A DNA stretch of 64,000 bases from Marsupella aquatica. Lineage: Eukaryota > Plantae > Marchantiophyta. Below the pieces are notes generated by a model that saw only the letters and a list, made by a program, of their open reading frames with translations, had not been told where the DNA came from and made no database searches. Below, one piece after another: positions 4,212 through 45,810 of this stretch. The position numbers and the translations under genes are program-made. Within the stretch, counting starts at the first letter, position 1, and the number at the start of each line of letters is the position of its first letter. The stretch lies in contig OZ316899.1 in assembly GCA_973895155.1 (NCBI GenBank), forward strand, positions 8,063,241 through 8,127,240, in the 5' to 3' direction.

Positions 4212-6817
4212 TTAATGCCTGGCACGCTTGCCAGAGCCGCCCGAGTGGGAGCGGCCATCCCGTTGCTTACGAAGTCTGTCGTTGTCTGCCTTGAGGAGCT
4301 GGACCTGGTCCAGCAAAGATTCGTTCTCTCACTTCGCCGCATCCGTCTCCTCCGCTGCCTCCTGGCATGCCTCCTCCAGCTGCTGGGCGTCGCTGGTCCT
4401 GCTTCTCGGCTTTGGTTTGGAGCCGTGCCACTTCGGCTTGTAGCGTGGCTATCTCCGCAGTGTCCCGCTGGGCCTGTTCTTCGGCCTCCTCCAGGTCCTT
4501 TTGCCAGATGATAGTTTGATTCTTCAAACTGTCAATCTGGTTCCGGAGTCGTGCAATCTCGGCCTTGTTCCCAGCTTTGGCCTGCTCGGCTAGGGCGGTA
4601 AGGGCGTGCGCCTTTGCTAACAAATCATCGGCGGCTGCAACTTTGGGTCGTAGTTGCAGAAGCTCAACCTCTTGAGCCGCAACTTTGTTCTTTAAGTATA
4701 CGGACTCCACCCGGTACCGCTCTATCCTCTGAAGGGCCTCTGACTGGGCCCAACCTGCCTTTACTACGGCAACTAACTCCTGATTGAAGAAACAGGCTAC
4801 CTTCCGAGCCATGAACTCCCCGGTATCCCGGGCAATTTGATGAGAGAAATTTCTCAGAAGCCCGTTCAGAAATGTACCCGGTACGAAGAGTTCCGGGTGG
4901 TCCAGGTTGTGCCTGTCCGGAGTTGGGCACGGGCAGATGTCAACACAAGCGGGGGCCGGGGCAGTGACATCCAGCCCTGGGGACGTAATGTTGGAAGGGG
5001 CTGGAGTGTCCTCCTGCAGCAATATCCGGTTCTCCGGAATAGCCACCGGTGGGTCTTTTGGAGACCCGGGCTCGAGTAAGACCTCCGCTGTACCAACTTC
5101 TGTACTTAGCCCGGCTTGTTGGATAGCATCAACGGTTGCGATAACCGACCCATCCGGTACCTCCTCGGTTACGATTACAGCTACTTGTGGAGGTGGGGTG
5201 GGTGAAGCTTGCGTGTCCGCTGGACTTTGGGCCTCGGGTTGGGGCCATCTCTCCAAGGCCGAAAAACCCATCTAGCTGGGACCAGCTTTGTAACGTTGAC
5301 ACGGGGAAGGGTTCGTCGATCAAACCAAGCGTACCACTCAAGAATGATCTCGATGTGGCTAGCGAAATACGCCTTCCCGCCAATGTACAACGTCTTCCTT
5401 CGCCGCTCCATCTCTTCATGGAATTTCTTAGCGAAGTACGACGCCCACTTCCTAGGTCGATAGTTCTCGACCTGGATAACCTGGGCGGCGGAGATCTCCC
5501 CCCGGGGCTCCATCATGTGGAGGGCGTACCTTTGGAACTCCAGTCGCTCAGCTATCTCGGGGATGAGGCAGGTCCTCATCACAAACCCGTTGTCCACTGC
5601 TCCTTCTGAGGGAAAACTCGAGGATTGGTACTTGGCTCCCTTGCCCCCGGGAGCCCGTGATTTGACTCGATGGTCACCTTCGGGTAATCCGAAGATCATC
5701 TTGAGCCGTTCTTCCTTAGGGACATATTCCTTCCCCGTAGCCGAGTATGCTGACGTGCGTCATCATAATTCTTGACGAATTCTGTCATGTCCTCCCCGTA
5801 GTACCTGCAAGTGTTCTAGGGCAGAGCGGCGAGGTGCTCGAATCCCTGAGTCTTCAGGTACACCGCATGCTTGGGATGGAGGATGTTCTTATGCACGTTT
5901 TCCCCCATGCGGTGCATTGTCACCTTGGCCACGGCTACCGTGGCCAATGGTAACCCGGATGCAGTGGCGGGTTCCTTCCTCTTCTTCCCCCGTGATTGGC
6001 TCGGGGAAGGTGACACCTCCCCATCCTCTCGATCGGGCATAGGTAGTGCTACCGCCGTTAGTATTGGTCCCGAGGCGGCCACGGTCACCGTGTTGTCTGC
6101 TGGAGCCGCTCCTTGGGTCCGAGCATGGGGAGGGGATGATGTAGTGTCGGCCCCCTGAGTGTTTGCTCCTCTGGGCCGCCTGAGCAAGGGTGGGGTAGCC
6201 TCGTCGTAGTCGCTAAGGTCCACAGCGTTGATGACAGAGCGTACTTGTACTGCTGGCGGGGCGATCGGCGGTGGGGGTTGGCTAGGCTGAGCCTGAGCCT
6301 GAGTCTGCGTTGGTACGGGTACGGGTATGGGGTCCACTGGGCTGGCGCCGGTGGTTGCGGGTCTAGTTCCCATGAAGCTCTGCAGGTGCTGGTAGAAATT
6401 CTCCGAAGCAAGTGCAGACAACCTTGTCAAACGGGTAGTGCTGGACTCGCTGTTGATGATAGCCCAAACCTGAGTAGGGATGTGGTCGAAGTGATGTCAT
6501 TGCAAATCGATCGTACCCGGGATATTGAAGAACTCGTCCGGAAGCCGAAGCAATGCTTCCCAGAAACTGATATATTTGTCTCTGTTGAAGAAGTACCCAG
6601 ATACCTCTGCTGGTCGGTAAAGCTCGCTCTGAGACGGGTAGTCAAAGTTAAGGATGTAGTGGTGTCGTCCTGCTAGGCGGATGGCTCTCTCATACTCGCG
6701 TTCGATTTCGTATCGGCATGGGTTGGCATGTTTCAATGAGTCGGCCAAGTGTCTTCCGGTAGATAGGAACTGCGTCCAGAATCGAATGGCCGAACTGGAG
6801 AGGATCGTGTGCGACAT
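4212..6817 (-). pseudogene. LTR-embedded accessory gene (about 860 codons): N-terminal domain, conserved central domain, coiled coil
   Basis: ORFs 6497-6817, 5816-6430, 5181-5699 and 4267-5271 join through two in-frame stops and several 1-bp frameshifts. Homologous by eye to the LTR-C protein (FNRDKYISFWEA~FCKDKIVGIWEA, IFGLPEG~VFGLPMG, EPRGEISAAQV~LPRAEIGKAQV). Confidence 0.8.
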
Positions 6818-6917
6818 TCAGAGGAGATAGTAGTGGCGACTTAGAGCGAACAAGAGAGCTGGGGTCGAAGCTAGCGCGTGGACTGATGGACTGGTGCACT
6901 CCAAAGGGTCGGCTCCC

Positions 6918-6925
6918 TTTTTATA
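6918..6925 (-). promoter_or_regulatory. Putative TATA box for the LTR-A embedded gene
   Basis: TATAAAAA about 100 nt upstream of the ATG at 6817. Confidence 0.45.
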
Positions 6926-7283
6926 CCTTGAGGGCTTGTCGATCCCCCGACATCTCCTCGTTGCCTATAGGCTGAACCGTTCACGTTTGTAGTGTACCGG
7001 CCACTCCGCCGGTCTGAGTCACTGCGTGTCAGTGGACGCCTCCTGAAGTTTGTTATACGGACCAGAGGAGGGGCCCCTCCACGCTCGTAACCCGGGCGTG
7101 CGAATGGCGACGCGCCGCCAGCCCAAACATGAATTCCCTTTATTGACTAATGATTTCCTACTCATAATGGCTACCTAAATACTGTCGTTATGCTAATCAT
7201 AGCGGCCTAAGATACCCCTAACGCGCGTGCTAGGCACGGTTTAGACCGAATTACTCATTACTCGCCGTACCGGCGGCGTCACA

Positions 7284-7661
7284 TGAACATCAAGCAACTT
7301 TACAACTGTGCACTTCTTTGCTACTTTACGGGCAAAACCCCTCTCCTATCTGTCTTTTGGGAGTGGGTCAAAGATGTGATGATGAGCCATGGGAATTGGC
7401 CGGTCCTGCAAGTCAAATATGTGGGAAAAAGTTTTTACATGATAGTCTTTGAACACCCAGACCATCGGGACCTGGCGCTGCAATTGGCCCCCTGGTTTAT
7501 GGAACGCCGCTTTGTGTACACATTTGCATGGGACCCATCATTTGACGTGAAAAGTGAGAGCTTCACTAAACTCCCAGTATGGATCAAAATTCCGTTTCGT
7601 GCCCTTACACTCGAAGGGTGCAGGCGCAAGATAGCTAGCTCGCTGGGACAACTGCTATACT
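7284..7661 (+). pseudogene. LINE ORF1 fragment (DUF4283-like)
   Basis: VKYVGKSFYMIVFE...APWFMERR...WDPSFD...KLPVWIKIPF...IASSLGQLL follows the plant L1 ORF1 pattern. Confidence 0.8.
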
Positions 7662-8716
7662 ATGATTGTTGTATTTACATGAAGGATGTGGAGAATTACT
7701 CACGTTTTGGTTACATTGTGCTGGCATTGTACGTGGATGACATGCTGATCCTAGCTGAGAATAAGTCTGATGTTGCCCATCTGAAAGCAATGCTGAGTAA
7801 GGAGTTTTCAATGAAGGACTTGGGTCAGGCCAAGAAGATACTAGGGATGGAGATTCATCGTGACAGGGAGCAAAGGCAATTATGGTTGTCTCAGAGGCAG
7901 TATTTGGAGAAGGTACTTGCCAAGTATGGAATGGAGAATGCAAAACCAGTTGGTACTCCATTGGCCTCCCACTTTAAACTCTCAAAGAATGATTGCCCTT
8001 CTAGTGAGAGTGATAGACTGGCGATGAAACATGTTCCCTATGATAGTGTTGTGGGTAGTTTGATGTATGCAATGACATGCACTAGACCTGACATTGCCCA
8101 CACTGTTAGCATTTTGAGCAGATTTATGGCAAATCCTGGTAAGCTTCACTGGGAAGCAGTGAAGTGGGTTTTGCAGTATCTGAAAGGTACCTTAGATTGT
8201 GGGATCTTATTTGACGGTAAAGCAGACTCTACATTAGAGTTGGAAGGTTTTGTAGATTCAGATTATGCTCGTAACTTGGATAACAAAAAGTCTACTACAG
8301 GCTATGTGTTTATGTTGGGTGGAGGTTGTATCAGCTGGAAGTTGGCAACTCAATCTTGTGTTGCGTTGTCTACTACTGAGGCTGAGTACATGGCTGCATG
8401 TGAGGCAACCAAGGAGCTGATCTGGCTACGGAGATTGGTGAGTGATCTGGGTCTTTCACCTGAAAGACCGGTGCTGCTGTGCGACAGTCAAAATGCTTTG
8501 CATCTGGCTAAGAACCCTGTGTTCCATGCCAGGACAAAGCACATTGATATTCGTTATCACTTCATCCATGAGGTGATTGAGACGAAGCAGATGTTTTTGG
8601 AGAAGGTGGCTTTAGAGGAGAATGCAGCAGACATGCTTACCAAAGTTTTACCTAGCAGTAGCTTTAGTCATTGTGTGGATATTATTAATGTTAGGGCCAA
8701 ACCAGTGACTATGTAA
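7662..8716 (+). pseudogene. Copia reverse transcriptase (C-terminal part) and RNase H
   Basis: LYVDDML, GSLMYAMTCTRPDI, FVDSDYA, STTEAEY and TKHIDIRYHF. 5'-truncated and fused in frame to LINE ORF1. Confidence 0.92.
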
Positions 8717-8783
8717 ATATGTTACTTAGTTACATATTGTATATCACCTGACTCATTGTGTGAACTTGAGTCAAGGTGGAGAT

Positions 8784-9078
8784 TGTTAGGAATTGACTCT
8801 AGTTTCCGACATAGTTAGCTTGGCCTTACTAGGGTTAGTTTTAACCCTAGATTACATTAGGATAAGATCCGCTTAGTTTAGGCCCACTCATCTTGGCCCC
8901 CTTGGGGGGTATAGGCTGGAGGGAGAGCACTCTCTCCCTCATTCTTCACATGTACTCTCATTTGCTATGGAGCCTTCAGGAGTTTCTCCACTTGGGGTGT
9001 CTCGTTGGTGTAGCGTTTGATTGAGTGTCTCTCATGTTTCCGCATTGTTGTCTAGTCTGGAGCCGACGGTTTCTTACA
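8784..9078 (+). repeat. Copia LTR
   Basis: TGTTAGG...CTTACA preceded by PPT CAAGGTGGAGAT. Matches the LTRs at 21359-21651 and 27450-27742. Confidence 0.92.
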
Positions 9079-9148
9079 AGTGGATCTCATTTCACTGCAT
9101 GTGATGGTGCGCTCTTTGTCATCAAAGATGATGTATCTTTGATTAAGG

Positions 9149-11597
9149 TGTCACGCGATTGACATGGGTCTTAACACCAAAAACGTCACTATGGGTGCCA
9201 AAACCATCTCCTTGTACCTGAGGATCACGAAGGGATGTTGTGAATGCCGATAAACACCAGTTTATGCCCTTAACACCAGACTATCATAGCAAGACTCTAT
9301 CACACATCACCCAAGCTCAATCCCAAGGAACCAAGGTTGGGGATCAGATCTGCGCTCATGATAGTTCTGGTGAGAAGGGGTCTTCATATCGGGCCCGTAC
9401 ACACAGGGCCTAGCACTACGGTGCGCAATAGGTCTATACATATGCTTACTGTCATAGGTATGTTTCTATTCCGCCGCCGGAATGTACCCATAAACCAGTG
9501 ACTCCTGACTGATTCCCGGCTTAGGGACTTCTAAGCCATTGCCCCACCACTCTGCCATTCCACTCTCAACAATCAGAGCTATGACAGTCCTCACCCAGCC
9601 CGCTTCAATGCACCCGGTACACCTCTCAGTGGCGCTGCTAGTTCCATCATACACTCAGATTGCCTCACACACACACACATCCATGAGAGAAATGAGGCCT
9701 GAGAGGAAAACTCAATTAGATTCAAAGATGTGCACAATAGTTCACTGAGAACACTTGATCCGAATACTAGGGCCGAAGGCTGTCTCCTCCAGATTGTGAC
9801 GTGCTTGCCCTGCAAGCCCCGTGCTTGCCATGCAAGCTCAATCCTGAACCTGAGCCCGGCTCACTCCAGATTGCGACGGCAGATTGGACTCGAACCAATC
9901 CCGTACTTGCCTTGCAAACTCAATCCTGAACTCAACCTCCTTCACTGCACTTCATTCTTGGGGGCACATACAGATCTCACACCTCCAATTCAGAACGTCA
10001 AGTTACGCATGCATAGTTGACTCGACTTCAAAGCTGGTACCAGGCCTAACGGCGATCTACCCCAGACTGCAATGAGGCCCGGCCTCATGCTTGCCCTGCA
10101 AGCTCAGCTCTGGCCATAGATCCCTTAGTGCTCTCCACCAGACAAAGGCCGGGACTCCCCATGGATCACGTAGCCTTGCCAGACTGAATTGTAAATGCTC
10201 CTCCTGCTGCCCCTTAATCAGTACCTCAGCCTCCCTAATGTGCCCACCGCAAATCGAATTGAAATCCTCCCCACAGTTTACAATCACCAATACATCACCT
10301 ATCACCAAGGCTCTGTATCGGGGGAAAAGAACCCAGTTGTGCTGCCCACTAGAAAGAGCCACAATCCAGCTCGCAAACCGAGCAACCCGTTGCTGTGAAG
10401 CTTGGCTGATTACTCCCTGAGTAATAGCACAACCAAGCTCTCCCCAACACGCAGCGTCCAAGTCCAGCCTTGCTTGCACAGAGCTCCTCCCCGCTGCTCA
10501 GTCTAAGTGAGATCACACAACTGAAGTCCCCCCCCCCCCTTGCCTCTACCGGGGGCTGCTCTATATACTCTCATACTGAGCCCAAATGGGTGGATACTAC
10601 GCTGCTGGAGCCCCATCCCAGCCCTAACAGAGCCGCCACTATCTCTAACTACTGAACCCTAACTCGCAACTTTATTTCTATCTCGAATTGGCTATGTACT
10701 TCGGATTCGGCCCTCCTCCATAGTTTTCGCGAGCTTGCGCCTCCTCTCCCGATTTCTCTATTTAACCATTTTCTGCGTGGATAGCACCGTTGGAAGCGGC
10801 TTGAGCTCCTCTTTCCAACGAGGTCAATTATAGCCGATTTGGTCAAATACACAGAGAGTTATGCCCCCGCAACCGAGAGGGGGTACTCACTGCTGCGCTA
10901 ACCCGAGTTACATAGCTAACCCGAATTTGGCTAACCTAGCTATCCTATCTAACCCGAGTAGAGCTAACCCGTGGTCTCGGGTTAGGCCGCTACCCGCTAT
11001 CCGCTATCCGCTAACCTAGCCTAAGCTGAGCCCGAATCCGAGCTTACCTATGCTAACCTGAGGCCGCGCTGACCTGAGCTAAGCTGAAGCCGTGTTGACC
11101 TGAGCTAAGCTGAAGCCGTGCTGACCTAAGCTAAGCTGAAGCCGTTCTTACCTGAGCTAAGCTGAAGCCGTGCTTACCTAAGCTAAGCTGAAGCCGTGCT
11201 GACCTGAGCTAAGCTGAAGCCGTGCTCACATAAGCTAAGCCGTGGTTAACCCGAAACTGAAGCCGAATCCGTTAATTTCGGCCACAAGTTAACCCGTCAC
11301 ACTAATCAGGCCGTATCTTTCTTAATACACCTCCGTTTCTCAAGTGTTTTATATCGATTTTACTCGCCTTGACCAGATCTTTCCAATGCTCTTTACAGAT
11401 CCGGATTTGGTGACATATTGAAAGAGATATGGTCGTCGACCACCCGCGACATAGCTTTTATTTCCCTACTCTTAACGCCATGATTGCCCTTATTCTTGCC
11501 ATCTTGCTAATTGTTATGCAATATCAATAGCTACTCCTTGCATACAGCAACCTACTTAATCAGATTACAAAATAAGGACCACGTCATTGGCGTCACA
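9149..11597 (-). mobile_element. Gypsy solo LTR-B (2449 bp)
   Basis: TGTGACGCC...CGTGACA termini and TSD TAAGG (9144-9148, 11598-11602). Removing it restores the Copia sequence GATTAAGGCGCTACG. Confidence 0.88.
11069..11244. repeat. 26-bp tandem repeat (about 6.5 copies) in LTR-B
   Basis: Unit CTGACCTGAGCTAAGCTGAAGCCGTG with minor variants, preceded by degenerate GCTAACCCG-type repeats from about 10895. Confidence 0.9.
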
Positions 11598-11760
11598 TAA
11601 GGCGCTACGACAAAATAATTTGTACATCTTGGAAGGAGATGTCATTGCTCCTAGACTGGAGCATGTGGATTCTGTGGTGGAACGTTTGGATGCAACGTCT
11701 GATTGAGTGTCTCTCATGTTTCCGCATTGCTGTCTAGTCCGGAGCCGACGGTTTCTTACA

Positions 11761-15200: not shown

Positions 15201-16422
15201 TCATTTCAAGGAATTTTTCTGCTTACCATCACCTTCTTCTACGATCTTAATCATGAATCGCGGGTACTCTGACCTTGGGAGCTTCCAGTGCAATGCATGA
15301 GTTACAAACTCCAATCTCTCTTTTATCCTATCATCTGTGCACTGTCGCATTTGATATCCTCTTGTATCATCAACTTCCTTGTGTTGGGGAAACAAAGCCG
15401 GTTGCCATGTTTTCCCCATCCTCTTCTTGATCTCAGCTCCTCTGGTTGGTAATCTGAATAGTTCTCGAAGTGTCCCTTGATCAGTCTTGATTAGTTGTCC
15501 CCTGTAGCTCCCTTGATTCCCTGAAGCTGTCCATGTTGTTATGAACTCGTTGTAATCTTTTGGTTTCAGGTTGGTGATTGTCGCCCATTTTGAATGAACA
15601 AATTCCCCGAGCCCCTGGTTTATCAAGAATTGCTTATGACTGCTACCTCGCATGTTCTCCAATATATGTGGCTCCATCCCTTTGAATTTCAGAACATGTT
15701 TTCCCGTATTGTGATCCTTCTTAACCCCACCTCTTGTTCCCGTACTTTGCCACTGGTTCCTCCTCCTCTTCAGTAGACTCCTCCTCAGTTTTGTCCTCAT
15801 CCGATTCGATCACTCGACTCTGCGCTTTACCCTTACTTCCGTTAATCGTTATAGCACGCCTCAATCCTATCCTTTTGGAAATTGTCATGTCTGGGCTTGG
15901 TGGTGTTGCTTTGCTGATTGCCATGATCTCCACATCCACATCTGCTCCTTTGATCAAATCATCCATTGTGGTCTCCGGTTCTGCTTCTTCAACTCTCTGC
16001 TTGTCCTTGGTCTTCTTCAATAGGCTCCCATCCATGATGGTCGATTTCTCCTTTGAATCATCTTCATCATCCTCCTTCTGCAATTTGACCCGATTACCCC
16101 CTTTTAACAACATTTCTTCTTGCATCCTTGCTTCCAGCAAGTCCGCAGTTTGCTCCTCCTGTATAGCTGTTACCTCCTCCGTTCCTTGTTCTTCAATCAG
16201 TTCCTCACCTTCTTCGTAATCCTCTATTTCTTGTACCATCTCTTCCACTCTTGTGGAACATTCTCCTTCCTCACGGTCCATAGTTCCCGCGCTGAGTTCT
16301 TCCTGTGGAATACTACTTCCCATTTCCGGTGTTTCCAGCAACTCGGCCACTGTCAATTTCTTCATTGGTGTATCGTCTTCAAATGACCCTGATCGTTTGA
16401 GTGTGATCAATTTCATTTTCAC
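15201..16422 (-). pseudogene. Accessory ORF of element D: acidic N-terminus plus the conserved central domain of the LTR-gene family
   Basis: ORFs 15721-16422 and 15201-15800 are joined by a frameshift. QGLGEFVHSKW, EFITTW, LFRLP, GYQMRQC and RLEFVTHALHWKLPRSE align by eye with the LTR-A and LTR-C proteins. Confidence 0.75.
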
Positions 16423-16615: not shown

Positions 16616-19600
16616 TGTGATGCCTAGCCAGGAATCACTAGGCCGGTTTACATGGTAAAAGCAGGAGTGTACCCTGGAAACACCTTAGTATAGTAACAAG
16701 ACAAGGAAAATATAAACAATTAAGGGTGACTATGGAACCCGGGCCGAGGCCAAAAGTAAGGACGCCGGGGGAGAGAACACGATTAGGGTTAGGGCGCACT
16801 AAGCGTCGGCGGCTAGGGGTGACCAACGGGAGGGAAGACCAGAGGAGGAGAGGGGTAAGGACCGCTCGCAAGGAATAGTGGCTCATTTGCAAGCACAAAC
16901 TGAGTAGACCACTACGGGAGGCCAAATACTGTAGCTGCTTAGGCAAGCACTCTGGGTGGGAACAAATACCAACGATCGAGTCAAGGAGGGTATGAGCAAC
17001 GTCAATCAAGCGACACATTTTTGGGGATGCTTGTTCGAACGGGCAACTGAGTACATTGGGACTTACGAGGACAAAGAATTGGAGAGAGCAGCTCAAGAAC
17101 GGCAGGAGCTCGCTCGACTGTGGGAGTTGCAGAAGTCTGCCTTCTTAGGAGGAGAACTCATCAAGGCCGAGTTCTTGTGGACTCCTACTGCCAATCAGCT
17201 CGATGACCTTCTGTTTTGCAAAGACAAAATCGTCGGCATTTGGGAAGCCATCAACCGCTGCAACGACGCGCACTGGGAGTTGAAGGGTAGCACGGAAGGG
17301 TGGACAAAGGCAACTGTGTTAGAAGAAACATCCACGACAGCCGAGATGAAGAGGAAAGGAAACAACAACAAAGAGGCCACCCCGGCAAAAAGAACGAGGT
17401 CGGCGGCACCAAGGAAACCAGCAAAGCAGCAGAACAGGAGGCAGGGAGAAGCCAAAGAGGAGGAGGTCGATCCCATCAATGCCATTCCAACAAATGATGA
17501 CACTTGGAAAGGCTGGGCGGCAACCCTACCAGAGGAAGTGCAATTACATTTTGCACGGGAGGAGGATGCATGCTTTACGGCCATGTAGACCAAGAAGTAC
17601 CAGGGCTTCATGGCCGGATCCGGCTTGGAAGCCTTTGTAAGATTACCATGGCTGAAGCCGGAGGTGCCGGACTCAGACTTATTAGAATTCGTGGGATCAT
17701 GGGAACCCGAGACCAATTCCATGAGGGTGTATGGGAAGGATTTCTATCTCACTCCCTGGGTGATTGCCGAGGTGTTTGGCTTGCCGATGGGTAATAAGAC
17801 CAAGGTTGATACCAGGAAGACCTTACCTGACAAGGAGTTCCGGTTGTTCCCAGGACCATCAACGAAGAATGGCTTCTTCCGAAACACCTACACCAACCCG
17901 CACATCGGAGAGATGATCGATTTCTTGCGGGTGACCATGCATTGTAACTTGCCGAGGGCAGAGATCGGCAAGGCTCAGGTCTACCTGGCAAAAAGGCCAG
18001 ACCCAAGCCGGGATTACAACGGGTACCTCCTCAACCAACTGAAGAAAAACTTGAAGGAGGAACAGCAGGTGATCGGCGTGGGAAGCATGTCCCGGCTTGG
18101 CTATCACATGCCGCTGTTGTGCCGGTATGCCAGAAGTCAAATCTTTGTCCCAGTACTTCCCCTATCGGCAAGGGCACCGGAGGAGGTTCCGGAGCAGAGG
18201 CCGGCAACAGAAGAGCCCAACCAGCCTGTCAGTCCTACGATCGAGCAGGTGTTTTGGCCAAGGAAAGAAGACTTGCCGATGCAGCAATCAGGCATGCAGA
18301 ATTTGCTGAAAATGCTGGAGAAGGAGAGAACGGCACCAGCAACGGCAACGGCGCCGGTACAAGACACTGCCCCAGAGGCCGGCCTAAGCCGACTTAGGAG
18401 GGAAAACCCCTTTACCGGAGCAGAGGAGAGAAGGAGGCCGGAACACAAGCCGGGAGTGTGAATGTATGTGGGAGCCTCAAGCCCCGAATCGGAGGCAGAG
18501 CAGCCTAAGGCTCCTTCCCGCGGAGAGCAGAGGGAGAGGACAGCCTAGAACCGAGAGGAGGAACAACGGCCCGTGATCTGTGAGGCCATTTTCACGGCAG
18601 GACCAGGGGAACAGAGGGGGAAGCAGGGAGTCCAAGCAGTGGAGGAGGCGGTGGAGGACTACAGCAATGATAACTCCGGCTATGGGTCGGATCATCATGT
18701 TCCAGGAGTAAGGACCTATGGCCAATTTATCCCCACGCTTCCAAGAGTAGTTTGAGGGGACCCCACCCAACAGAGTAGCCCCGAGTCTCCCCCACCAGAG
18801 GTTGCTCCCCCGAGCTTTGACGGCATAAAACAGACGGCACAAGAATTTCAGGAGCGACTTAGGGAGGAAGAGAAAGCAGCCCTGGCTAGGGAGAAATATT
18901 TACCAGGAGGAGATTGGCCGGAGGACATCAGGCGGCTTGCCAAAAAAAGAAGCAACCCTCTTGCCACCGTAGAAGAAATCCGCAAGGCGGCTTGGGAACA
19001 GAGGCCGAGGTGGTTGATGCCGATGAATTCTACTTACTCCACCTATGCTAAGGATAGAGCCATGGAGTATGGGGAGATGTGTGGGGACCTGGCGCTCAGC
19101 ATCTTTGGGGAGGAGTTGGAGCAGGGACCTTTCGTCCAGAAGGAGAGGTTGGAGAAGCACCGATTAGAAGAAGCGGTGGCTTTGGAGAGAAGCAAGAAGG
19201 ACGAGGTCATTCGGCGGCTTAGGGAGAAGGAAGCCAAGGTGGAAGTCCTGCAAGCGGCCAAGAAAGCCCAAGATGAGTTGCGGATTAAGCGGCATGAGCT
19301 AAACATCATGCAGGGGCAGTTGGATACCGCTTAGTCTGACAATCAGATTATCAAAGATAAACTGACTCGGACCCAAGGAGAGTTGGCCGGCACAGTCAAG
19401 GAAAGAGAGAAATGGAAGCGGGAGCTAAGGGACGTAGAGGAGGCCCACTTAACTGCCAACAACCGGGCCATGGCGGAGACTTAGAGAAGGGAGAGGGCGT
19501 TGAAAGGAGAGCTCGAAGATATCCACGGAGCCCTTGAGTAGAAGGAAGCAGAGTTAGGGAAATCCTATCAAGGGATTATTGCGCTGTAGCAGGAGCTTGC

Positions 19601-21293
19601 GTCCCTGACGACCAGCTTCAAGGCCAACCTGCGTGAAAAGGATGACCAGCTCGACCAGACTTATGCCAAGATGAATAAGATGGAGTCTGTGGTCGTAGCA
19701 GAGCTCGACAAGGAGCTAAGAGCAACCCAGGAGGAGAGGGCTACCTTAAAGAAAGAATTGGAGGAAGCCAAAAAGGAGCTGGAGGCGCGCAAGGACTTGG
19801 ATGAGACCCAGGAGGAGTTGGAGGAAATCATGAGGAAGATGGAGAACCTACAGCGGCGGGCCGACAACCAAACGGAGCGGCTGAAGAAACAAGCCACAGT
19901 ATTTAAATGCTTGGCTTCATCAGGTCCAACTCCAATTGGGGCAACCTAGTTACTAGGGGTAGTATTGGCCGAAGGACAAGCCGAGACACTCACCCCGGTG
20001 CCGGAGGTAAGTGGTAAGGGGAAGGAACCGGCTGTCAAAATAGGGAAGAAGAAGAAGCGGAAACCTTCTAGGTCTGGGAGTTATACGGCTTCTCAAGCCG
20101 TTGTGACCAAGAAGATAAACCCGGCACCAACCTCCGGCATTGGCACGGCGGTGGATCCACCAGTCCTAGGAAGTGGGGATGGCAAGGTCGAGGCCGGGAC
20201 AACCAGTTATGAAGCCGAGGTACCAGATCCTCCACTAGAACATGCCGGGGAGGCCGTGGCCGATGCTGAGGCCAAAGCCGATGGTGGACCCAGTCAGGCC
20301 GATGAAGAGTTGACTCGGTCCGGGGCAGGTAATCTGTCAGAAGACGGACCAATGATAGTGGTTGCGGAGGAGGCGTTGGGGGCATCCATTGAGGACCAGC
20401 CACCGGGGTCGTGACGGTGTAAGGGAGCCGTCCCTTTTAGGGAGGGCGGACGTGGAGGTAGGAGGCGTGAGTGGGCAGGGCAGGCGCTGATCTCCAAGTT
20501 TAGACTAAGGATCAGGATCAGGAGACAGCCCTGACACTTAGATTAGTGGGATTGCGGATCCACGAGTGAGGGCGACACTTGTGCTCCTGCCTTGCTGTAC
20601 ATAGGTAGATTACAGTTAGGTAGATTACAGTAAGTAGATTAGGCGTACGCTGCAAGGAATCAGGCGGATCCACAACCAGGATAAGTACCTAGGCTGTAGG
20701 GAGTTCAGGGCCTCTTCTTTAACAAGTTTCTAGTTGCACCAGCAAGGCTGGGATCAAGTAGTAAGAGAAGCTCTCGGTTAGTTATACAGTGACCCTTGTG
20801 TATATTCATGTTTCCTCATACCTAAGAACTGAATAGAGTTGGCCTCATGGCTTAGTTTGCAGAGCTTGTGTATGAGATGTACTGTTTGTATGGCAAGTGC
20901 ATGGTATAACTCAGTCAGAAGGAGTCATTTTGTTATTTGTGTGTCGCATTAACTTGTGTGAAGAGTGCCCACATCAATGAAGGGAAGTAGCAAGGGAGTG
21001 AGAGATGGATGTGTCAAGCTGAGAGAGATCTTAGCGGCTTAACCAAGCCAAATTGGGGATCATTCCGGTGGCGGAATCCAAACATACCTAATGGAAGACC
21101 AGGTATGTATCTCATGACCCGATGAAGGATCTGTCCAGTATATGTGTGTAAGATGTTAATCGTAGTAGTAGAGGAGATTAGAAGCGTCCCATGCCGCTAA
21201 GCCACGGAAACGGCCTCATCGAGGATCAAACCTGCGGGAATCGGCTTGTGCGGGGGGGTTTCTTGGGTTTGGGGCGCCATGGGAAGAACCACA
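16616..21293 (+). mobile_element. Gypsy solo LTR-C (4678 bp), protein-coding
   Basis: TGTGATG...CCACA termini and TSD ACAGG (16611-16615, 21294-21298). No gag/pol and no internal direct repeats seen. Carries the 3' hairpin motif of LTR-A and LTR-B. Confidence 0.85.
16992..20414 (+). pseudogene. LTR-C embedded accessory gene (about 1100 codons, long coiled coil)
   Basis: ORF chain 16956-17588, 17610-18461, 19014-19334, 19671-19949 and 19965-20414, with stops and frameshifts. The TAG at 17586 is CAG in the second copy. Confidence 0.8.
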
Positions 21294-27447: not shown

Positions 27448-27449
27448 CT

Positions 27450-39615: not shown

Positions 39616-40629
39616 TTATTCATAATCATTAGGGTTAACAGAATCATACGCACTATCAAAAAACTCTTCATCTGTGGTCTGGAACTCAGAAGTAACATAT
39701 TCTGGGTTGTCATAGGGAATGAATGGCTTTGTTGGCCATATTTCATATAAATCATATTTATGCTCATCTAATCGCATATTTGTTGAAAGTGACTGCCTGA
39801 CCCATTCAGGGCAGACCACACGCAGCCCATGTGTGATAAGCCATTGTACTGTGGACTTTCCATACTCTCAGCATGCCTTAGAATATGAATGAGCAATGAG
39901 ATGGGTGGTCTCATTAGTGAGCTTCTCAATTACTGTACCACCTCTTCTACTGATCTCCCTCTTGAAACGACAGACCCTATATGGCTTGATAGACTTGTCA
40001 AGTATAACAGCCCTCACACCTCTGAACATGGTACGGTTTGGGATGGGTTCTGTCTCATATGGGAGAATGTTGTTGTATACTTTTGTGATCTGGTCAATAG
40101 ACGAAACCCTACTCCCACCTCTCCCTGCAATTCTACGAGCCTTGTGCCAATCTCGACTGTCTTTCATCATTTGGACGCTATTGTACTTTCTCTCAAACAA
40201 ATTGTAATCATCAGGATCTTGGACAATCCCTTTTCTAAGGGAGTCAGACATCCATTCTGCTGAAAGTATTTTGACATGCCTCAAGAAGACTTTGTCATAG
40301 AAAACCGACCAAGATGCCATTTTCAGACAATGTTCCCATGTTTCTGCAATAATATGGGTGACTTCAGTGTCCTGTAGTTGAGATTGTGTCTTTGTACCGT
40401 GACGCTCAATGAGTTTTCTCCTAAGGATATCCAATCTTGCACTCTGAATACCCGGGACAAAAAAGACTCTGACCCCTTGGAAGATGGGAGCACATTGGGA
40501 AGTTGGAAGGGGGACAGGTTCACGCTTCCGTTTGGAAGGCAATACATGCAGTAAATCCCAGCACGGAGTCAATACATGCAGTAAATCCCAGCACGGAGTT
40601 ATAGGACAAACCATATACTCTTCAGTCAA
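39616..40629 (-). pseudogene. Tandem BRCT-domain protein with one in-frame stop
   Basis: Two BRCT-like units: IFQGVRVFF...VTHII...AEWMSDSL..Y and MFRGVRAVIL...RRGGTV...TTHLI...PEWVRQSL..Y. ORFs 39868-40629 and 39616-39819 are in frame across a single TGA. Confidence 0.75.
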
Positions 40630-43600
40630 ATTATTTTCACCATGTGTTCATGTAATTACATTGATGAAAGTAGAGCGACAGCCTACTTCAGTATACACAT
40701 AGCATACATGTGGCCCTTTATATTGTCTTGTCTGCATATAGCCTGAATTCACATTTGAATACCTGTATCTTACATGACAGTGGTGGGGACTGAGAATGAT
40801 ATCATTCAACTGCCCAAATTCCAGTCACATCTGTAATTGTACAAATGTATGGGGCATCACCACCGAGACAGGAAAACAGGATTCTTGTTAACAGGAAAAT
40901 AGGAACTGTTAATTAACAGTAAAGATATGAAGTTTTTGGCCCACTTTTGATGGAAAGGTAAGACTTGATCGGGTTCCTTGCAACAACAAAATTCACATGC
41001 TATCTCTGTAACTGAATTACTTGTCCAGCATATATGCGTAAACCATAGAGTGGGTCCCACCATACACAGGCTACTGAGGTGAGGCACACTCCAAAAATAC
41101 CAATCTTAAAAATATCATCGGAATCGGTAAGGTACTATGTAATAGCGCTAGGCGCTAACAAAAAAACCAAGGGGTTTGAGATGAGACCAAATGGATTGAA
41201 CGGTGTTCATAAATAAATAATTAAGTACACTTCAATGAAGTGTGACCTGGAAGGGGAAGATTTATATCCCACGAGAAGAACTCAAATATAGGAAAGTTCA
41301 CAAACGGAGATTCCGATCGCAAAGATAAGTACTGGAAAGCATTCGGACCATAATCAAACAAGATTCACTCAGAAAGGGACAAACTGAAGCTAGCGCCCGG
41401 CGCTAGCCATATGTTATAACAAAATGTGTAAAGAAAATGAGTATCTGATTAGGTATCATTGAAAAGATGTGAAACGTTCCAATGCGACAAATCAGTTTGG
41501 AGCCGTTGAACGTTACTAAATGTCTAGTCTATAAGTCCAAAGAATTCTGCCTAGCTAGAATGAGCCTCACCTCACCTACAGTCAGAATTGGCTGACTAGC
41601 CAAAGTTGAATCCACCACATCTAGTTTTAGGACGTTGGTATACACCCAATAGAGATGCTTGCACGGCATGAAGGGCCTACCATGAGAATGGCGACGATAG
41701 AAGTCCTCACAAGAACAACATGGGAAAATGCAAATCTGTACCCAATAAGTGTTTGTCGTGTGAAGTCTCTCTTGGGTTTGGATCTGAAATTGTTTGCCCC
41801 AAGAGTTCCCGATAGAAACATCAAATTGTTGAACGAGAGTCATTGACTCCTTGTTTGCGGATTCAATTCTTTTGTTGTGCCCTTGCGAAAGATTTGAACG
41901 TGGGATTGTATTTTTACCATTCCTGCTCCAAAGGCGGATATTTGGCTCAAGGAGATTGATTTTCTCCGGGAAAAGGTTCACATTGATTCGCAAGTCAAAA
42001 GGAGATGGAGCAGCCTGACGTCCGGCCTCTAGATTGATAGCAATCCCTTGCTGAGTCAGGAATTGGACCTCAGCCTCGGAAAGATTCACCACATTATGAC
42101 GGGGCCGGCTCTTATAGCATGCACTATTGGGACAAAACCAAATCATCTCAGGGTGTGGTTCTCCCCTGAACATGCGATATCCTTTGACAACAATGCCAAC
42201 TACACCATCCGTTGACGGGTAACCAACCTTTTTAAGATGATTGCGACAGTCATCTCGATCCGATTATTTTCCACCAAGAGATCCATTACACTGAGGCCCT
42301 GCACCATGTCTCGTCACTCTTCGTAGGTGCCACGCCCCTGGTCGCACATCTGTCTCCAACATAGGTGAGTCATGGACAACCTTTTGGAGGTTGGGAGGTG
42401 CAGACCTTTTGGAGGTTGGGAGGTTGGGAGGTTGGGAGGCTGCAGACGACCTTGTTGACCTCCTCCAGGGCGGAGTACTCCAATGTCTGCCTTCTTCAAT
42501 TTCACTTTCTGACAGGTCCACAACGCCAATGTCATGGTGAATAGGACCCGATGCAACGGGGGAGAATTCAGTCTTGTTTAAGTTTTTCTTTTTCATGCCT
42601 CGAGTATTTGGTGATGTTACAAGAATAGTGTCATGCCGATGGGAGTCTTGTGCCGAGATGTTCCCAGAGGCTTGACCTTTCCTCTTCATAGACTTTGTGG
42701 TAACATCCCCATTGAGAGGGCCACTCCTTTCCAGGTCGAATTCAGCCGCACCGGAAAGAAGCATATTGGAAGCATCTTGGAAAAGTTTTGAAGAACCTGC
42801 CTGGTCTGCCGAACGGAATGCCAATTCCCAAATTGTAGGTCCGGTTCCTCGGTTAAGACCTCTCTTATACGTCGTATACGTAGCAACTTGTGAAAGAGCC
42901 CTATTTTGATCCATCTCACATGCTTCAAATAGACCAGCCTTTTTCTTAGTTTGCCAAGCCTTCATCATGGAATGTGCCGCCTCTGAAGTAGTACAGTTAG
43001 GAATCATAGCGCTTTCCTCTACGCTTTTGTTCTGCATAAAACATTTGGAGCACAGTTTAGGAAATATGGCTTAGTCACTGCATTCAATAAAGAAACATTT
43101 GAACCAAATCATTTGGTTAGATTTTCGGGTTTAATCAATGCCAGCGCCTGGCGCTACCACCATTCACACTAGAATATGGACAAATACGAGTAACAAGTGG
43201 TTCATAAAACTAGTGTCGGGTGCTAGTATCAAAACTCGGGCAAATATTGGAGTGGAACTAGGACACGGAAGTCACTGGAAATAATGATAGCGCCAAGCGC
43301 TAGTATGACTTTGTTTGATTCCTTCTTTTAAAATGTTGATTCGTGTGTTTACTTGTTTATGGATGTTGAAACTCACCAAACAAATAAAATTTCCCCATTG
43401 ACGCCATCGGACCACCCACCACGCAAGCCAACCTTGGAGCATCCGAAGCTTTCCTGGAACACAATTCCCTGATCTCCACATGTCAATTTCCCTGGAAATT
43501 CTGTAGGCTCCAAGAAATGTTGACGCGTTCCTTAAAGAGTCCCACATCTTCCGGTGCTCTTCTCGTTTTTCTTCCAATACTCCTTCAATTGAATGACGAT

Positions 43601-44232
43601 GAAACGATTGATAGAAGTGAAACGCATCCGATCGCTCCTTTTCCGGGTTAGGATGTCCACCAAAAAACACGTTCCGGACAACATTCCATCCAGCTTGAGC
43701 ATTGTCAGCCATGAATCCATGGATTACTGTGATATAGCAATTATTCAGAATTTCTGTGAAAACTTTAAAATTTTCAACTTTTTGAGATAAGTAGTGATTC
43801 GCCTCAGGTTATCTATATTAATTAGGAGCATTAGAGTAGTTAAGCCATCCTCAAGTACATCCTTGTACTCTCCTAAAACTAGTTCCTTTTACAACCATGT
43901 CAAACCGGAGTCACAATAGCAGCTTATACGCTTACGCGCTGATGCTTCCAGACGCTTATACGCAGCCCACCCTGCCGGTAACCGAAAGTAACCGTTGACA
44001 ATGAGGAGGGAGTGACAGAGTGACTTACTGGACCACCTGCTCGCGATGAATATTTCCACTTCCCTGTTTGCTACCAAAGGCCTCGACGATCATACGCCCA
44101 TACGTAGAGACGCTTGAGCGCTGTGGCATTTATACGCTCATACGCAATCACGCCAATACGTCCGACATTTTGCAACTTAGATTTCTGTGGCAATAGTGAA
44201 TCAAATTCCAAGAACCGTGGCTACAACTTGCC

Positions 44233-45810
44233 ATGGCGGGCGTGGAGGAGATGAGTAGCGATTCCCCTATTCCGAAAGCTGTACCTGTGAAGTACCCCGC
44301 ACTGGAGAGGGATTTGATGTTATTGACCGATGCTCTAGAAGTTATGCACCTGGGAAAACTTCTATCCATTCCGTGGTCTTCTATGTGTCCTACCTACTTG
44401 CGCGAGTTCGCTGATGAGTCTCAGATTCCAGAAGCTTTTCAAGAGACTGTTCGAGCAAATCCCGAAAAATGGGACTTGGAATTCGTGGCCGACGCTTTTA
44501 GTTGTCCATCAAAAGGTTGTGGTTTACAATCTGGAAAGAGTACTCTATCTGATCCAATGTTCGCTGGGACGATAAATACGAAGGCTGGATGGAAGCTAAA
44601 TCAATGTATTGATTATACCTTCAAAATTATCCTTGAGTTTTTAGTGCCGATTTTCCATCCCACTCGACCTTACATGGTACCTGTATCTTTGGCGAACACA
44701 TTTGTTACTTCATGGAAGGGACTTGCTGAAGTTAATTGGGGATTGTTACTGAGACACACCATCCTCAGTCAAATCAATGCTGTACAGAATGAAAAACCTA
44801 CATACCTCCCAGCTTACCTCAGTCAGCTTTACTGGTATGGAGACTGTCTACTCCCACAAGAGAAGCTCGAAAGGATTGCACTATTGGAGGAATTAGATGT
44901 GGAACATTCAGAGGCTGATTCGAGACTCGATGATCTGAGAATGGAGGAAACATCAGAAGCCAATCATCAAGAAATTATACCACCTGCTCTGGAACTTATG
45001 GATGAGGATATTAATTCTCACGTTGAGATTACACCTTACCATACTAATAGTAGTCCGACCGACCACTCTCCTCTCCCTGTTATCCCTGCCAGTGAACACA
45101 ATCATCCAGAGAAATTGATTGATGATGAGAAGGCTATTTTTAATCAGGATATAGTAGACAGTTTGTCCAGAATGCTGACCTGTGATCCAGAAGAAATCCT
45201 CCCTATTGTAGATAGATTAAGGACTGCTTCTGTTACTCAACCCTCACCAGCCTATAACTGTATTACTCCATACAATCCCACTTCCATTTATTCACCCACC
45301 CAGAGTCCTATCCAATCAAAACATCCATTCACCGAAGGACAATCAGAAGCCCCTAGGACTACACATCACCTCTCTCTGACAGACATCGAGTATCCAGACA
45401 CTATCATGGGATCCCCAATGGATGAGAGATTACCACCACTGAGAACAGATCTTCAACAAATTATGAATACTTCACCCCGACATCCAACTGAGTACTATTT
45501 TAATCTTGTGGGTGAGATTTGCAAGATGTTGGAATGTGATCCCGGTCATTTGATCGAAATATTAGATGAGATTATGTATAGATTATCACGTATTTCAAGC
45601 CACGACCAGCACTTGGAATACTATGAAGATCTCGTCCACAGATTCACTCAGATGTTTGGCTGCAACACCAAACAAGTTTATTCTGCAGTTCGCTATCATA
45701 CCTCAGCATCAGGCTCTCCCATTTCTTATTCTAGTTCTCCTTCTAGCCATTCACCTACTTCTCCTTATAGTCCTTCAAACCAACCAACCAACTTTTCCCT
45801 AGTTTTTTAG
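44233..45810 (+). CDS. LTR-E embedded accessory protein, 525 aa, distant member of the LTR-gene family
   Basis: Uninterrupted ORF. HLGKLLSIPW, LREF, VADAFSCP, GWKLNQC and ILEFLVPIFHPTRP correspond in order to the central domain of the A, C and D proteins. Confidence 0.75.
   Translation: MAGVEEMSSDSPIPKAVPVKYPALERDLMLLTDALEVMHLGKLLSIPWSSMCPTYLREFADESQIPEAFQETVRANPEKWDLEFVADAFSCPSKGCGLQSGKSTLSDPMFAGTINTKAGWKLNQCIDYTFKIILEFLVPIFHPTRPYMVPVSLANTFVTSWKGLAEVNWGLLLRHTILSQINAVQNEKPTYLPAYLSQLYWYGDCLLPQEKLERIALLEELDVEHSEADSRLDDLRMEETSEANHQEIIPPALELMDEDINSHVEITPYHTNSSPTDHSPLPVIPASEHNHPEKLIDDEKAIFNQDIVDSLSRMLTCDPEEILPIVDRLRTASVTQPSPAYNCITPYNPTSIYSPTQSPIQSKHPFTEGQSEAPRTTHHLSLTDIEYPDTIMGSPMDERLPPLRTDLQQIMNTSPRHPTEYYFNLVGEICKMLECDPGHLIEILDEIMYRLSRISSHDQHLEYYEDLVHRFTQMFGCNTKQVYSAVRYHTSASGSPISYSSSPSSHSPTSPYSPSNQPTNFSLVF

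What the first reader, a model, noticed from the sequence alone, without database searches (positions are those of the whole stretch)
4212..45810. One accessory protein family shared by four divergent elements
Seen, aligned by eye: a domain of about 170 aa with ordered motifs G[LF]xx[FL]xx[LI]PW, EF, FGLP, NG[FWY]xxxxC, L[ED]F and H..PR.E occurs in LTR-A, LTR-C, LTR-E and the 3' ORF of element D. A and C also share an N-terminal domain (A.xFW...F..DK...WEA..R..D) and a C-terminal coiled coil. D instead has an acidic N-terminus, and E has its own C-terminus. Motif conservation without obvious DNA similarity implies long purifying selection. Inference: it may be a remote relative of the Athila 'env-like'/putative plant transposon protein or of the plant mobile domain. 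I saw no signal peptide or transmembrane segment.
Basis: partly seen in the sequence, partly recalled or inferred. Interest (0 to 1): 0.75.

Follow-up and report, generated by a model that had tools for sequence, protein, structure and literature searches.

The report
Liverwort transposon protein family, VANC21-like fold
Five decayed copies of one transposon-borne protein family lie in this liverwort-like window; its core is predicted to fold like the DNA-binding part of VANC21, a plant transposon's anti-silencing factor, so it likely binds DNA to regulate its own element.

Summary
A core of about 190 aa occurs at A 5181-5759(-), C 17589-18461(+) and D 44200-45810(+).

A profile built only from 20 outside proteins scores A, B, C and C' at 99.5-99.7% hhalign probability and D at 90.8%. 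The other 47 long ORFs score 3% or less.

The family has 56 relatives among 1.84 billion representatives. All ten that carry an organism name are from liverworts. No member reaches any Pfam threshold.

C and C' give dN/dS 0.15. The family is a high-copy repeat.

Best reading: a new, sequence-divergent branch of the VANC / plant-mobile-domain-like transposon accessory proteins, with a basic core and a C-terminal coiled coil. It is predicted to be a nuclear DNA binder. Any anti-silencing role is inferred.

Which element carries the ORF is unresolved, because no LTR pair encloses any copy.

The parts
6500..6817 (-). Copy A, N-terminal piece. It holds the motif F..DK...WEA..R..D that it shares weakly with copy C.
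   Evidence: Translation. BLASTP against the C N-terminus: 41 aa, 27% identity, E 2e-5. One in-frame stop separates it from the next piece (same frame by coordinates).
5816..6496 (-). Copy A, proline-rich and basic linker. Its last ~37 residues are the start of the core domain (QGFEHLAALP).
   Evidence: HMM of outside proteins: domain E 6.8e-6 on residues 159-226. hhalign 41.7% over 37 columns. A frameshift follows.
5181..5759 (-). Copy A, core domain (FGLP ... NGF....C ... LEF ... H..EPR.E ... W..YF).
   Evidence: HMM E 9.1e-42. hhalign 99.7%. Closest outside relative is P0013, 56% identity.
4267..5271 (-). Copy A, linker and C-terminal coiled-coil-like region, in a third frame.
   Evidence: Weak hits to the coiled-coil families FlxA (E 4.5e-4) and ADIP (E 2.1e-3). 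Translation.
15204..15809 (-). Copy B, core domain of a second subfamily.
   Evidence: HMM E 8.4e-47. hhalign 99.7%. Closest outside relatives are P0007 (56%) and P0001 (40%).
16935..20414 (+). Copy C. One frame of about 1160 codons with 9 in-frame stops and no frameshift. Order: N-terminal region, basic linker, core domain (17589-18200), proline-rich linker, long coiled-coil-like region (about 19140-19946), low-complexity tail.
   Evidence: Frame and stops. Core: HMM E 4.8e-46. 19590-19946 hits 11 Pfam families, mostly coiled-coil or long-helix ones, best E 1.8e-5. At 6 of the 8 stops within 16935-19946, nearly all other laid contigs carry another letter.
53003..53890 (+). Copy C', same subfamily as C. 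It lacks the 5' end: the match to C begins at 53009, inside what reads on from an integrase ORF. An insertion cuts it at 53865.
   Evidence: blastn 17202-18058 against 53009-53865, 87.3%. HMM E 1.5e-41. dN/dS against C 0.15 over 284 codons.
63432..63902 (+). Copy C', continuation after the 9.6-kb insertion. It runs towards the window end.
   Evidence: blastn 18054-18515 against 63483-63946, 83.3%. The 5-bp duplication AAGGA flanks the insertion.
44200..45810 (+). Copy D, the most divergent member. The first Met is at 44233 and the core domain is at about 44329-44802. An acidic, serine- and proline-rich tail follows.
45771..46694 (+). Second ORF after D, in another frame. No family was found. 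It has one hydrophobic stretch.
   Evidence: No Pfam hit at E up to 0.01; at E up to 0.05 only one sub-threshold hit, BrxL_N, E 0.021. Hydropathy maximum 1.88 at residue 116. Whether it belongs to D is not shown.

Best explanation
The window holds five decayed copies, in four subfamilies, of one high-copy protein family so far named only from liverworts. Its ~190-aa basic core is predicted to fold like the DNA-bound region of VANC21, the anti-silencing factor of the Arabidopsis VANDAL21 transposon, so the protein likely acts in the nucleus as a DNA-binding accessory factor of the element that carries it.

Shown:
- The family is real.
- Its copies here are pseudogenes.
- Copies C and C' diverged under purifying selection.
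- Other copies of the C family differ from the window at most of C's stop codons.

Predicted:
- The fold.
- A basic surface.
- A basic, NLS-like linker before the core.
- A C-terminal coiled coil that would make the protein oligomerise.

Inferred by analogy only:
- It recognises short motifs in its own element.

The carrier element is not identified. Copies A and D sit 1.1-1.3 kb upstream of Ty3/gypsy gag-pol on the same strand, but no LTR pair encloses any copy.
For: Family.
- Profile search: 56 relatives at E of 1e-3 or less, 22 at 1e-10 or less, among 1.84e9 representatives.
- The outside-only profile recovers all five window copies, with clean negative controls.

Fold.
- AF2 model of the C core: pLDDT 86.7, pTM 0.81.
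- Independent leads: ESM neighbours named DUF1985 and plant mobile domain.

Selection and copy number.
- dN 0.069, dS 0.473, ratio 0.15 over 284 codons.
- 5,113 to 17,235 contigs per run lie on copy C at 85% likeness or more.

Chemistry.
- The core has pI of 8.6 or more in 15 of 20 outside members.

Literature (passages read).
- VANC resembles MAIN in structure and has a predicted coiled-coil oligomer (PMC13547354).
- 'PMD plus coiled coil' extra ORFs occur in seed-plant Tat elements (PMC4408406).
Against: - No sequence or profile search links the family to PMD, DUF1985 or VANC: Pfam gave 0 of 5 window copies and 0 of 56 relatives, and a PDB profile search gave nothing at E up to 10.
- The D model used the family alignment, so its VANC21 match is not independent.
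- DNA binding, nuclear location and any effect on silencing are untested.
- A shared fold does not show a shared function, and PMD proteins and VANC act in opposite directions on silencing.
- 5 of 20 members have a neutral or acidic core.
- Carrier element: summed contig depth rises 4- to 6-fold at about 3342 in all four runs, and 4 contigs of one run diverge at 3353. This hints that A's ORF and the neighbouring gag-pol are separate repeat units. The tool warns that such depth cannot rank parts.
Confidence: 0.6

Rival explanations
1. A lineage-specific retrotransposon protein whose likeness to VANC21 is only a common alpha/beta arrangement. It would serve another step of the element's cycle, for example as a nucleic-acid chaperone, in nuclear import of the pre-integration complex, or as an assembly scaffold through its coiled coil.
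For: - No sequence link to any known family reaches threshold.
- Coiled-coil tails and basic regions are common in many kinds of TE proteins.
- 19590-19946 weakly hits a phage scaffold family among other coiled-coil families.
Against: - Language-model neighbours independently name DUF1985 and PMD clusters.
- 3 of 56 relatives hit the same part of Transposase_32, a family of plant TE accessory ORFs.
Confidence: 0.25
2. The family is in essence a 5' extra ORF of Ty3/gypsy elements, sense-oriented and upstream of gag, like ORF1 ('PMD plus coiled coil') of Ogre-type Tat elements. The copies here would be pieces of such elements.
For: - A lies 1.1-1.3 kb upstream of a gag-pol on the same strand. 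That gag-pol is 40% identical to the intact element's polyprotein, residues 119-1141.
- D lies 1.26 kb upstream of gag-pol E on the same strand.
- The domain-plus-coiled-coil architecture matches the Tat extra ORFs described in PMC4408406 (passages read).
Against: - No LTR pair, and no primer-binding site of the types searched, frames any copy.
- There is a depth step and loose ends at about 3342-3353 between A's ORF and the gag.
- E lacks the capsid part of gag next to D.
- The intact relative F has no such ORF.
- C faces a gypsy pol tail to tail, and C' follows a truncated integrase at an evident junction.
- One Riccia relative is fused to a DDE_Tnp_4 fragment.
Confidence: 0.35
3. A host gene family (domesticated, or never mobile) that happens to lie as pseudogene fragments in a repeat-rich region.
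For: Calypogeia fissa and Riccia sorocarpa annotations list members as ordinary protein products.
Against: - Thousands of contigs per run match copy C and copy A at 85% or more.
- There are five copies of four subfamilies in 64 kb, all among gypsy, copia, LINE and CACTA sequences.
- Four of the five carry stops or frameshifts.
Confidence: 0.05

Closest known systems
VANC21 (VANDAL21/Hiun anti-silencing factor, Arabidopsis; PDB 9lnk and 9lnj; carries DUF1985 and DUF287 according to PMC5735166)
   Same: - Both are transposon-encoded accessory proteins, not enzymes.
- Both have a coiled-coil region. For VANC21 this comes from passages of PMC13547354.
- Language-model neighbours include DUF1985 clusters.
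   Different: - No detectable sequence similarity: Pfam DUF1985 gave 0 of 61, and the PDB profile search gave nothing.
- The host here is liverwort-like, whereas PMC13547354 calls VANC dicot-specific.
- The neighbours are gypsy gag-pol sequences, not a MULE transposase.
- DNA binding and loss of methylation are untested here.
Plant mobile domain (PF10536): MAIN/MAIL1 and the 'PMD plus coiled coil' extra ORFs of Tat/Ogre Ty3/gypsy elements
   Same: - TE-borne domain followed by a coiled coil.
- Found with more than one TE type.
- Two copies lie upstream of gag in sense orientation, as in Tat lineage IV (PMC4408406, passages).
- An ESM neighbour cluster is named 'plant mobile domain'.
- VANC is reported as structurally homologous to MAIN (PMC13547354, passages).
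   Different: - The Pfam PMD model hits none of the 61 sequences.
- The core here is about 190 aa; my recollection, not from a call, is that PMD is about twice as long.
- PMC4408406 reports no extra ORFs in moss Tat-like elements, and PMC7156037 describes PMD as widely spread in angiosperms.
- No PMD structure was available for comparison.
Transposase_32 (PF20167) and Athila ORF-1 (PF03078): 'putative plant transposon protein' of Athila-type extra ORFs
   Same: - It is the only Pfam family hit repeatedly inside the core: 3 of 56 relatives, all in profile positions 3-87 of 177.
- ESM neighbours of D include PF20167 and ATHILA clusters at 0.81-0.82, which are leads only.
- A sunflower Athila 3' ORF with this domain is predicted to be nuclear (PMC11728184, passages).
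   Different: Scores of 14-17 bits lie far below the 45-bit cut-off, and only the first half of the profile is matched. No window copy hits it.

Membership tests
The liverwort family itself (profile of 20 outside proteins) | Significant, collinear profile match over the core domain | tested here: met
   A, B, C and C': HMM E 1.5e-41 to 8.4e-47 and hhalign 99.5-99.7%. D is weaker: hhalign 90.8%, P 1.2e-6, 150 columns; HMM E 0.006. Controls: 47 other ORFs 3% or less, reversed and shuffled D 0.2% or less.
Plant mobile domain, PF10536 | Match to the Pfam model at or above its gathering score | tested here: not met
   No hit in the 5 window copies at E up to 10, nor in 56 outside relatives at E up to 0.1.
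Plant mobile domain, PF10536 | Fold shared with a PMD protein such as MAIN | not testable with these tools
   No PMD structure appeared among the PDB matches, and no AlphaFold DB library was on hand. The only link is indirect, through VANC21 and the statement in PMC13547354.
VANC / DUF1985 (PF09331) | Match to the Pfam DUF1985 model | tested here: not met
   0 of 61 sequences. ESM neighbours named DUF1985 at 0.91 are leads only.
VANC / DUF1985 (PF09331) | Fold of the DNA-bound VANC21 crystal structure | tested here: met
   [not shown]
VANC / DUF1985 (PF09331) | Sequence-specific DNA binding that removes DNA methylation from the cognate element | not testable with these tools
   Needs DAP-seq or ChIP and bisulfite sequencing.
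VANC / DUF1985 (PF09331) | Encoded by a VANDAL-type Mutator-like element | tested here: not met
   No MULE, SWIM or other Mutator family hit next to any copy. The neighbours are gypsy gag-pol, copia, LINE and CACTA.
Transposase_32 (PF20167) / Athila ORF-1 | Match at or above the 45-bit gathering score | tested here: not met
   Best 17 bits. 3 of 56 relatives at E 0.0058-0.059; 0 of 5 window copies.
Extra ORF of Tat/Ogre-type Ty3/gypsy elements ('PMD-CC') | Domain followed by a C-terminal coiled coil | tested here: met
   A: FlxA and ADIP hits. C: 11 coiled-coil-type hits at 19590-19946, and 35-residue windows with 0.7-0.8 E/K/Q/R/L/A and no P or G. No dedicated coiled-coil predictor was run.
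Extra ORF of Tat/Ogre-type Ty3/gypsy elements ('PMD-CC') | Lies inside an LTR-bounded element, between the 5' LTR and gag or between pol and the 3' LTR | tested here: inconclusive
   A and D lie upstream of gag-pol on the same strand. But no LTR pair or primer-binding site was found, and there is a depth step at about 3342.
Env-like ORFs (Athila and retroviral type) | Signal peptide and transmembrane segment | tested here: not met
   Maximum 19-residue hydropathy is 0.35-1.35 in A, B, C and D ORF1. Only the separate ORF 45771-46694 reaches 1.88. No dedicated signal-peptide predictor was run; only the 19-residue hydropathy scan.

The most novel reading that the evidence does not exclude
Transposon-borne VANC/PMD-like DNA-binding factors are as old as land plants. 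On this reading, liverwort repeats carry their own sequence-specific chromatin regulators, built as a basic core plus an oligomerising coiled coil, that counteract silencing of their cognate copies.

That would make the long-enigmatic extra ORFs of plant Ty3/gypsy elements anti-silencing genes. It would also reverse the proposed origin of VANC from a captured MAIN-like host gene.
Probability: 0.2. Interest if true: 0.8.

Novelty: new variant of a known kind. Interest (0 to 1): 0.55.

Why it matters
The function of the extra ORFs of plant LTR retrotransposons (PMD, Transposase_28/32, Athila ORF1) has been open for some twenty years. The review PMC7264820 (passages read) still calls their roles unknown.

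VANC21 is the one TE accessory protein of this structural kind with a known activity and a solved DNA complex. A liverwort family that has the same predicted fold, is under purifying selection and is present in very many copies matters in three ways:
- It extends this class beyond seed plants.
- It gives a concrete hypothesis, DNA-motif binding that alters silencing, testable where liverwort transformation is available (recalled: Marchantia; no call supports this).
- It bears on whether host PMD genes such as MAIN derive from transposons or the reverse.

It also supplies a profile for annotating ORFs that are now labelled 'unnamed protein product' in liverwort genomes.

Tried and rejected
Sequence searches that found nothing useful:
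- Word-indexed search with C: none at E up to 0.01.
- With alignment A3: only two proteins already in hand.
- With D residues 1-230: none at E up to 1 among proteins of 288-919 aa (after a time-out).
- PDB sequence-profile search: nothing at E up to 10.

Resources not available:
- The window's own genome is not held.
- Earlier findings of the scan returned nothing.
- The VANC21 structure paper (Tanaka et al. 2026) is not held. So I could not say which VANC21 residues contact DNA, or which Pfam domain covers residues 320-533.

Search for the carrier element:
- No LTR pair around any copy.
- No similarity between the 5' and 3' flanks of A, C or D.
- No primer-binding site like that of the intact element elsewhere in the window.
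- Recalled tRNA primer-site motifs gave nothing convincing.

Ideas considered and dropped:
- C as an antisense 3' ORF of the minus-strand gypsy at 28329-31796. I judged it unlikely, because the intact relative F ends about 40 bp after pol (ORF end 60252, 3' LTR start 60292) and because B would then also lie inside that element.
- A Mutator/SWIM reading of 41529-43808(-). Pfam does not support it.
- Short tandem arrays near the ORF ends as VANC-like target repeats. This was post hoc, and one array probably lies within B's decayed frame, so I did not pursue it.

Expression: no RNA holder is listed for copy C.

Not run: complex prediction. Profile-profile comparison with PMD, DUF1985 or Transposase_32 could not be run, because no member sequences of those families were available from the tools. 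PMD motif sequences in a supplement of PMC7156037 were not used.


Full report
WHAT THE WINDOW IS

The 64-kb window is a mosaic of plant transposable elements. Pfam on 45 long ORFs and self-comparison show the following.
- Four different Ty3/gypsy gag-pol stretches:
  - 'A-pol', 2937 to 1 on the minus strand.
  - 'G', 31796 to 28329 on the minus strand.
  - 'E', 47953-53022 on the plus strand.
  - An intact young element 'F', whose 2050-aa ORF spans 54100-60252 and whose 286-bp LTRs are 98% identical.
- A young copia at 21359-27742, plus an inverted fragment of it at 7662-9083.
- A LINE-like RT at 11707-14764.
- A CACTA transposase at 35891-39188 on the minus strand.

The named relatives of the family under study come from the liverworts Calypogeia fissa and Riccia sorocarpa. 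The window is therefore most likely liverwort DNA. Its own genome is not held.

CHECK OF THE OBSERVATION

I found five copies.
- A: the core is at 5181-5759(-). Its first motif lies in another frame at the end of 5816-6496(-), an N-terminal piece is at 6500-6817(-), and a coiled-coil piece is at 4267-5271(-). That makes at least one stop and two frameshifts.
- B: 15204-15809(-).
- C: one frame, 16935-20414(+), with nine stops and no frameshift. The core is at 17589-18200.
- C': 53003-53890(+), continuing at 63432-63902. It is 87% identical to C in DNA and lies outside the finding's range.
- D: 44200-45810(+).

Apart from C and C', the copies share no DNA similarity.

Protein similarity is far above chance.
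- blastp among 785 six-frame ORFs gives A-C 1.5e-9, A-B 3.5e-8 and C-B 6.5e-6, but D-B only 0.073.
- A profile built only from 20 outside proteins scores B, C, A and C' at E 8.4e-47 to 1.5e-41 and D at 0.006.
With that outside-only profile against all 54 window ORFs of 150 aa or more, hhalign gives 99.7% for A, B and C, 99.5% for C' and 90.8% for D (P 1.2e-6, 150 collinear columns). It gives 41.7% for the A fragment that holds the first motif and 3.0% or less for the other 47 ORFs. Reversed D scores 0.1% and ten shuffles of D score 0.2% or less.

D is therefore a genuine, though remote, member.

The other parts of the observation hold to different degrees.
- The shared N-terminal motif of A and C is real but weak: 41 aa, E 2e-5.
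- Both A and C end in coiled-coil-like sequence.
- No membrane-like segment occurs in A, B, C or the first D ORF.

THE FAMILY OUTSIDE THE WINDOW

A profile of the window copies finds 56 proteins at E of 1e-3 or less, 22 of them at 1e-10 or less, among 1.84 billion representatives.

Of 20 looked up, nine are 'unnamed protein product' of Calypogeia fissa and one is a Riccia sorocarpa protein fused to a DDE_Tnp_4 fragment. Two are unnamed metagenome or NCBI entries, and eight occur only on Logan contigs of 2.7-4.9 kb.

Each window subfamily has its own closest outside cluster: A with P0013 at 56%, B with P0007 at 56%, and C with P0006 at 43%. The subfamilies therefore appear older than the species split; no tree was built.

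It runs on through W..(Y/F)F and a final helix (..H..iiL).

Many members have a basic stretch before the core and low-complexity sequence plus coiled-coil-like sequence after it. The core is basic (pI of 8.6 or more) in 15 of 20 members.

SELECTION AND COPY NUMBER

C and C' differ at 12.7% of bases but give dN 0.069 and dS 0.473, a ratio of 0.15 over 284 codons. Their lineages therefore diverged while the ORF was under purifying selection.

Contigs of four public runs were laid on copy C at 85% likeness or more. They number 5,113 to 17,235 per run, so this is a very high-copy repeat.

At six of the eight in-frame stops within 16935-19946, nearly all other contigs carry another letter inside the stop codon. 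The places in table 3 are 17586, 18547, 19332, 19482, 19539 and 19587. The two remaining stops are not among the 40 rows shown. The stops are thus private decay of this copy.

In both laid regions the window copy has A or T where the others have G or C far more often than the reverse. For region A in run X1 the counts are 181 against 60 places. That is the pattern expected from deamination of methylated cytosines in a silenced copy. This cause is inferred.

No RNA run is listed for the stretch, so expression is open.

WHAT IT RESEMBLES

By sequence it resembles nothing known.
- No window copy hits any relevant Pfam family even at E up to 10; the only rows were two unrelated sub-threshold hits, p12I (E 0.35) and Zein-binding (E 0.21).
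- Among all 56 outside relatives none hits PMD or DUF1985.
- The only family hit more than once inside the core is Transposase_32 (PF20167). Three relatives hit it at E 0.006, 0.0058 and 0.059, always in the first half of the profile and far below the cut-off.
- A PDB profile search is empty.

By predicted structure there is one clear neighbour.
- The AF2 model of the C core is confident (pLDDT 86.7, pTM 0.81).
- Foldseek ranks the VANC21-DNA crystal structure first, though weakly (E 0.41).

VANC21 is itself a transposon-encoded accessory protein.
- Passages of PMC5735166 say VANC proteins carry DUF1985 and DUF287, bind a short DNA motif and cause loss of DNA methylation of their own elements. 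PMC10398659 agrees.
- The language-model search had already named DUF1985 and 'plant mobile domain' clusters among the nearest neighbours of the C core (0.91). It named Transposase_32, DUF1985 and ATHILA clusters for D (0.81-0.82, leads only).
- Passages of PMC13547354 report structural homology between VANC and the PMD protein MAIN. They also predict coiled-coil oligomers for VANC and for the Athila domain.
- Passages of PMC4408406 describe 'PMD plus coiled coil' extra ORFs in seed-plant Tat elements and none in moss Tat-like elements. PMC6317226 gives PMD in 57% of Ogre elements, Transposase_28 in 23% of Retand and Athila ORF-1 in 16% of Athila.
- PMC11728184 finds Transposase_32 in a sunflower Athila 3' ORF that is predicted to be nuclear.

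HOW IT MOST LIKELY WORKS

Shown: a conserved, selected, high-copy, transposon-associated protein family.

Predicted: a VANC21-like fold, a mostly basic core, a basic linker that looks like a nuclear localisation signal (for example 17355-17460 in C), and a long C-terminal coiled coil.

Inferred: the protein enters the nucleus, oligomerises through the coiled coil and binds DNA of its own element family. It thereby changes that family's chromatin state or transcription.

The direction of the effect cannot be read from the fold. It could be anti-silencing as in VANC, or a role in silencing or gene regulation as in MAIN and MAIL1 (PMC7156037).

WHICH ELEMENT CARRIES IT

- A and D each lie 1.1-1.3 kb upstream of a gypsy gag-pol on the same strand, as Ogre-type 5' ORFs do.
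- Against that, no LTR pair, flank similarity or primer-binding site frames any copy.
- E lacks its capsid region next to D.
- The intact relative F has no such ORF.
- C meets gypsy G tail to tail, with a copia inserted between them.
- C' begins at a junction inside a truncated integrase.
- Summed contig depth rises 4- to 6-fold at about 3342 in all four runs. Contig counts per variant place are roughly 2- to 3-fold higher on the ORF side. Four contigs of one run diverge from the window at 3353. This is a weak hint, given the tool's warning about depth, that A's ORF unit and the gag-pol beside it are separate repeats.

I therefore leave the carrier open.

NOVELTY

My searches for a prior description found none for liverworts. 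The searches were 'plant mobile domain', retrotransposon and bryophyte, 'plant mobile domain' with Marchantia (2 of the 3 matching papers were listed, titles only read), Transposase_32, and the reviews read in passages. These searches are not exhaustive.

The family is best called a new, sequence-divergent variant of a known kind: the VANC / PMD / Transposase_32-like accessory proteins of plant transposons.

Noticed in passing
53866-63478: Copy C' is split by a 9.6-kb insertion with TG...CA ends and a 5-bp target duplication (AAGGA). It starts with the intact gypsy F: LTRs at 53865-54150 and 60292-60579, 98% identical, around a 2050-aa open gag-pol. After the second LTR it carries a further 2.9 kb (60580-63478) with no LTR similarity and several tandem arrays at 61092-61729. 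The structure LTR-internal-LTR-tail is unexplained.
   Followed up: partly
43926-44160 and 46893-46936: Short CG-rich motifs cluster on both sides of the D ORFs. Five of the window's eight ATACGC lie within 300 bp just upstream of D's start codon. A tandem array GCGCTTAT x5.5, a near variant (CTTATGCGC), lies 200 bp after the second D ORF. It is reminiscent of the motif arrays that VANC proteins bind, but this is a post hoc observation.
   Followed up: partly
1-7700 and 16935-19946: Against thousands of other copies, the window copies have A or T where the others have G or C much more often than the reverse. In run X1 the counts are 181 against 60 places for 1-7700 and 147 against 99 for copy C. 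This is the signature expected of cytosine deamination in silenced repeats.
   Followed up: partly
39868-40647(-) and 41529-43808(-): An ORF with a BRCT domain (E 5.8e-12) lies between the CACTA transposase and D. Next to it are ORFs with no Pfam hit, one of which holds a CxC...CxH pattern that looks SWIM-like to me (recalled resemblance, no tool support). Whether this is a host gene or transposon cargo is unknown.
   Followed up: partly
7211-8716(+): One open frame joins a DUF4283 domain (E 5e-10) to the end of a copia-type RT (RVT_2). It is probably a chimeric junction at the edge of the copia fragment.
   Followed up: no
11020-11240: A 26-bp tandem repeat, 8.5 copies with 86% matches, lies about 470 bp upstream of the LINE-like RT ORF (11707-13281).
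   Followed up: no
45771-46694(+): The ORF after D has no detectable family. It has one strongly hydrophobic 19-residue stretch (mean hydropathy 1.88), the only membrane-like segment near any copy.
   Followed up: no
P0052 (Riccia sorocarpa KAL3679715.1): One outside relative carries the core domain directly after the C-terminal end of a DDE_Tnp_4 (PIF/Harbinger-type) transposase domain. This is either a fused gene model across two repeats or a sign that the domain also travels with DNA transposons.
   Followed up: no
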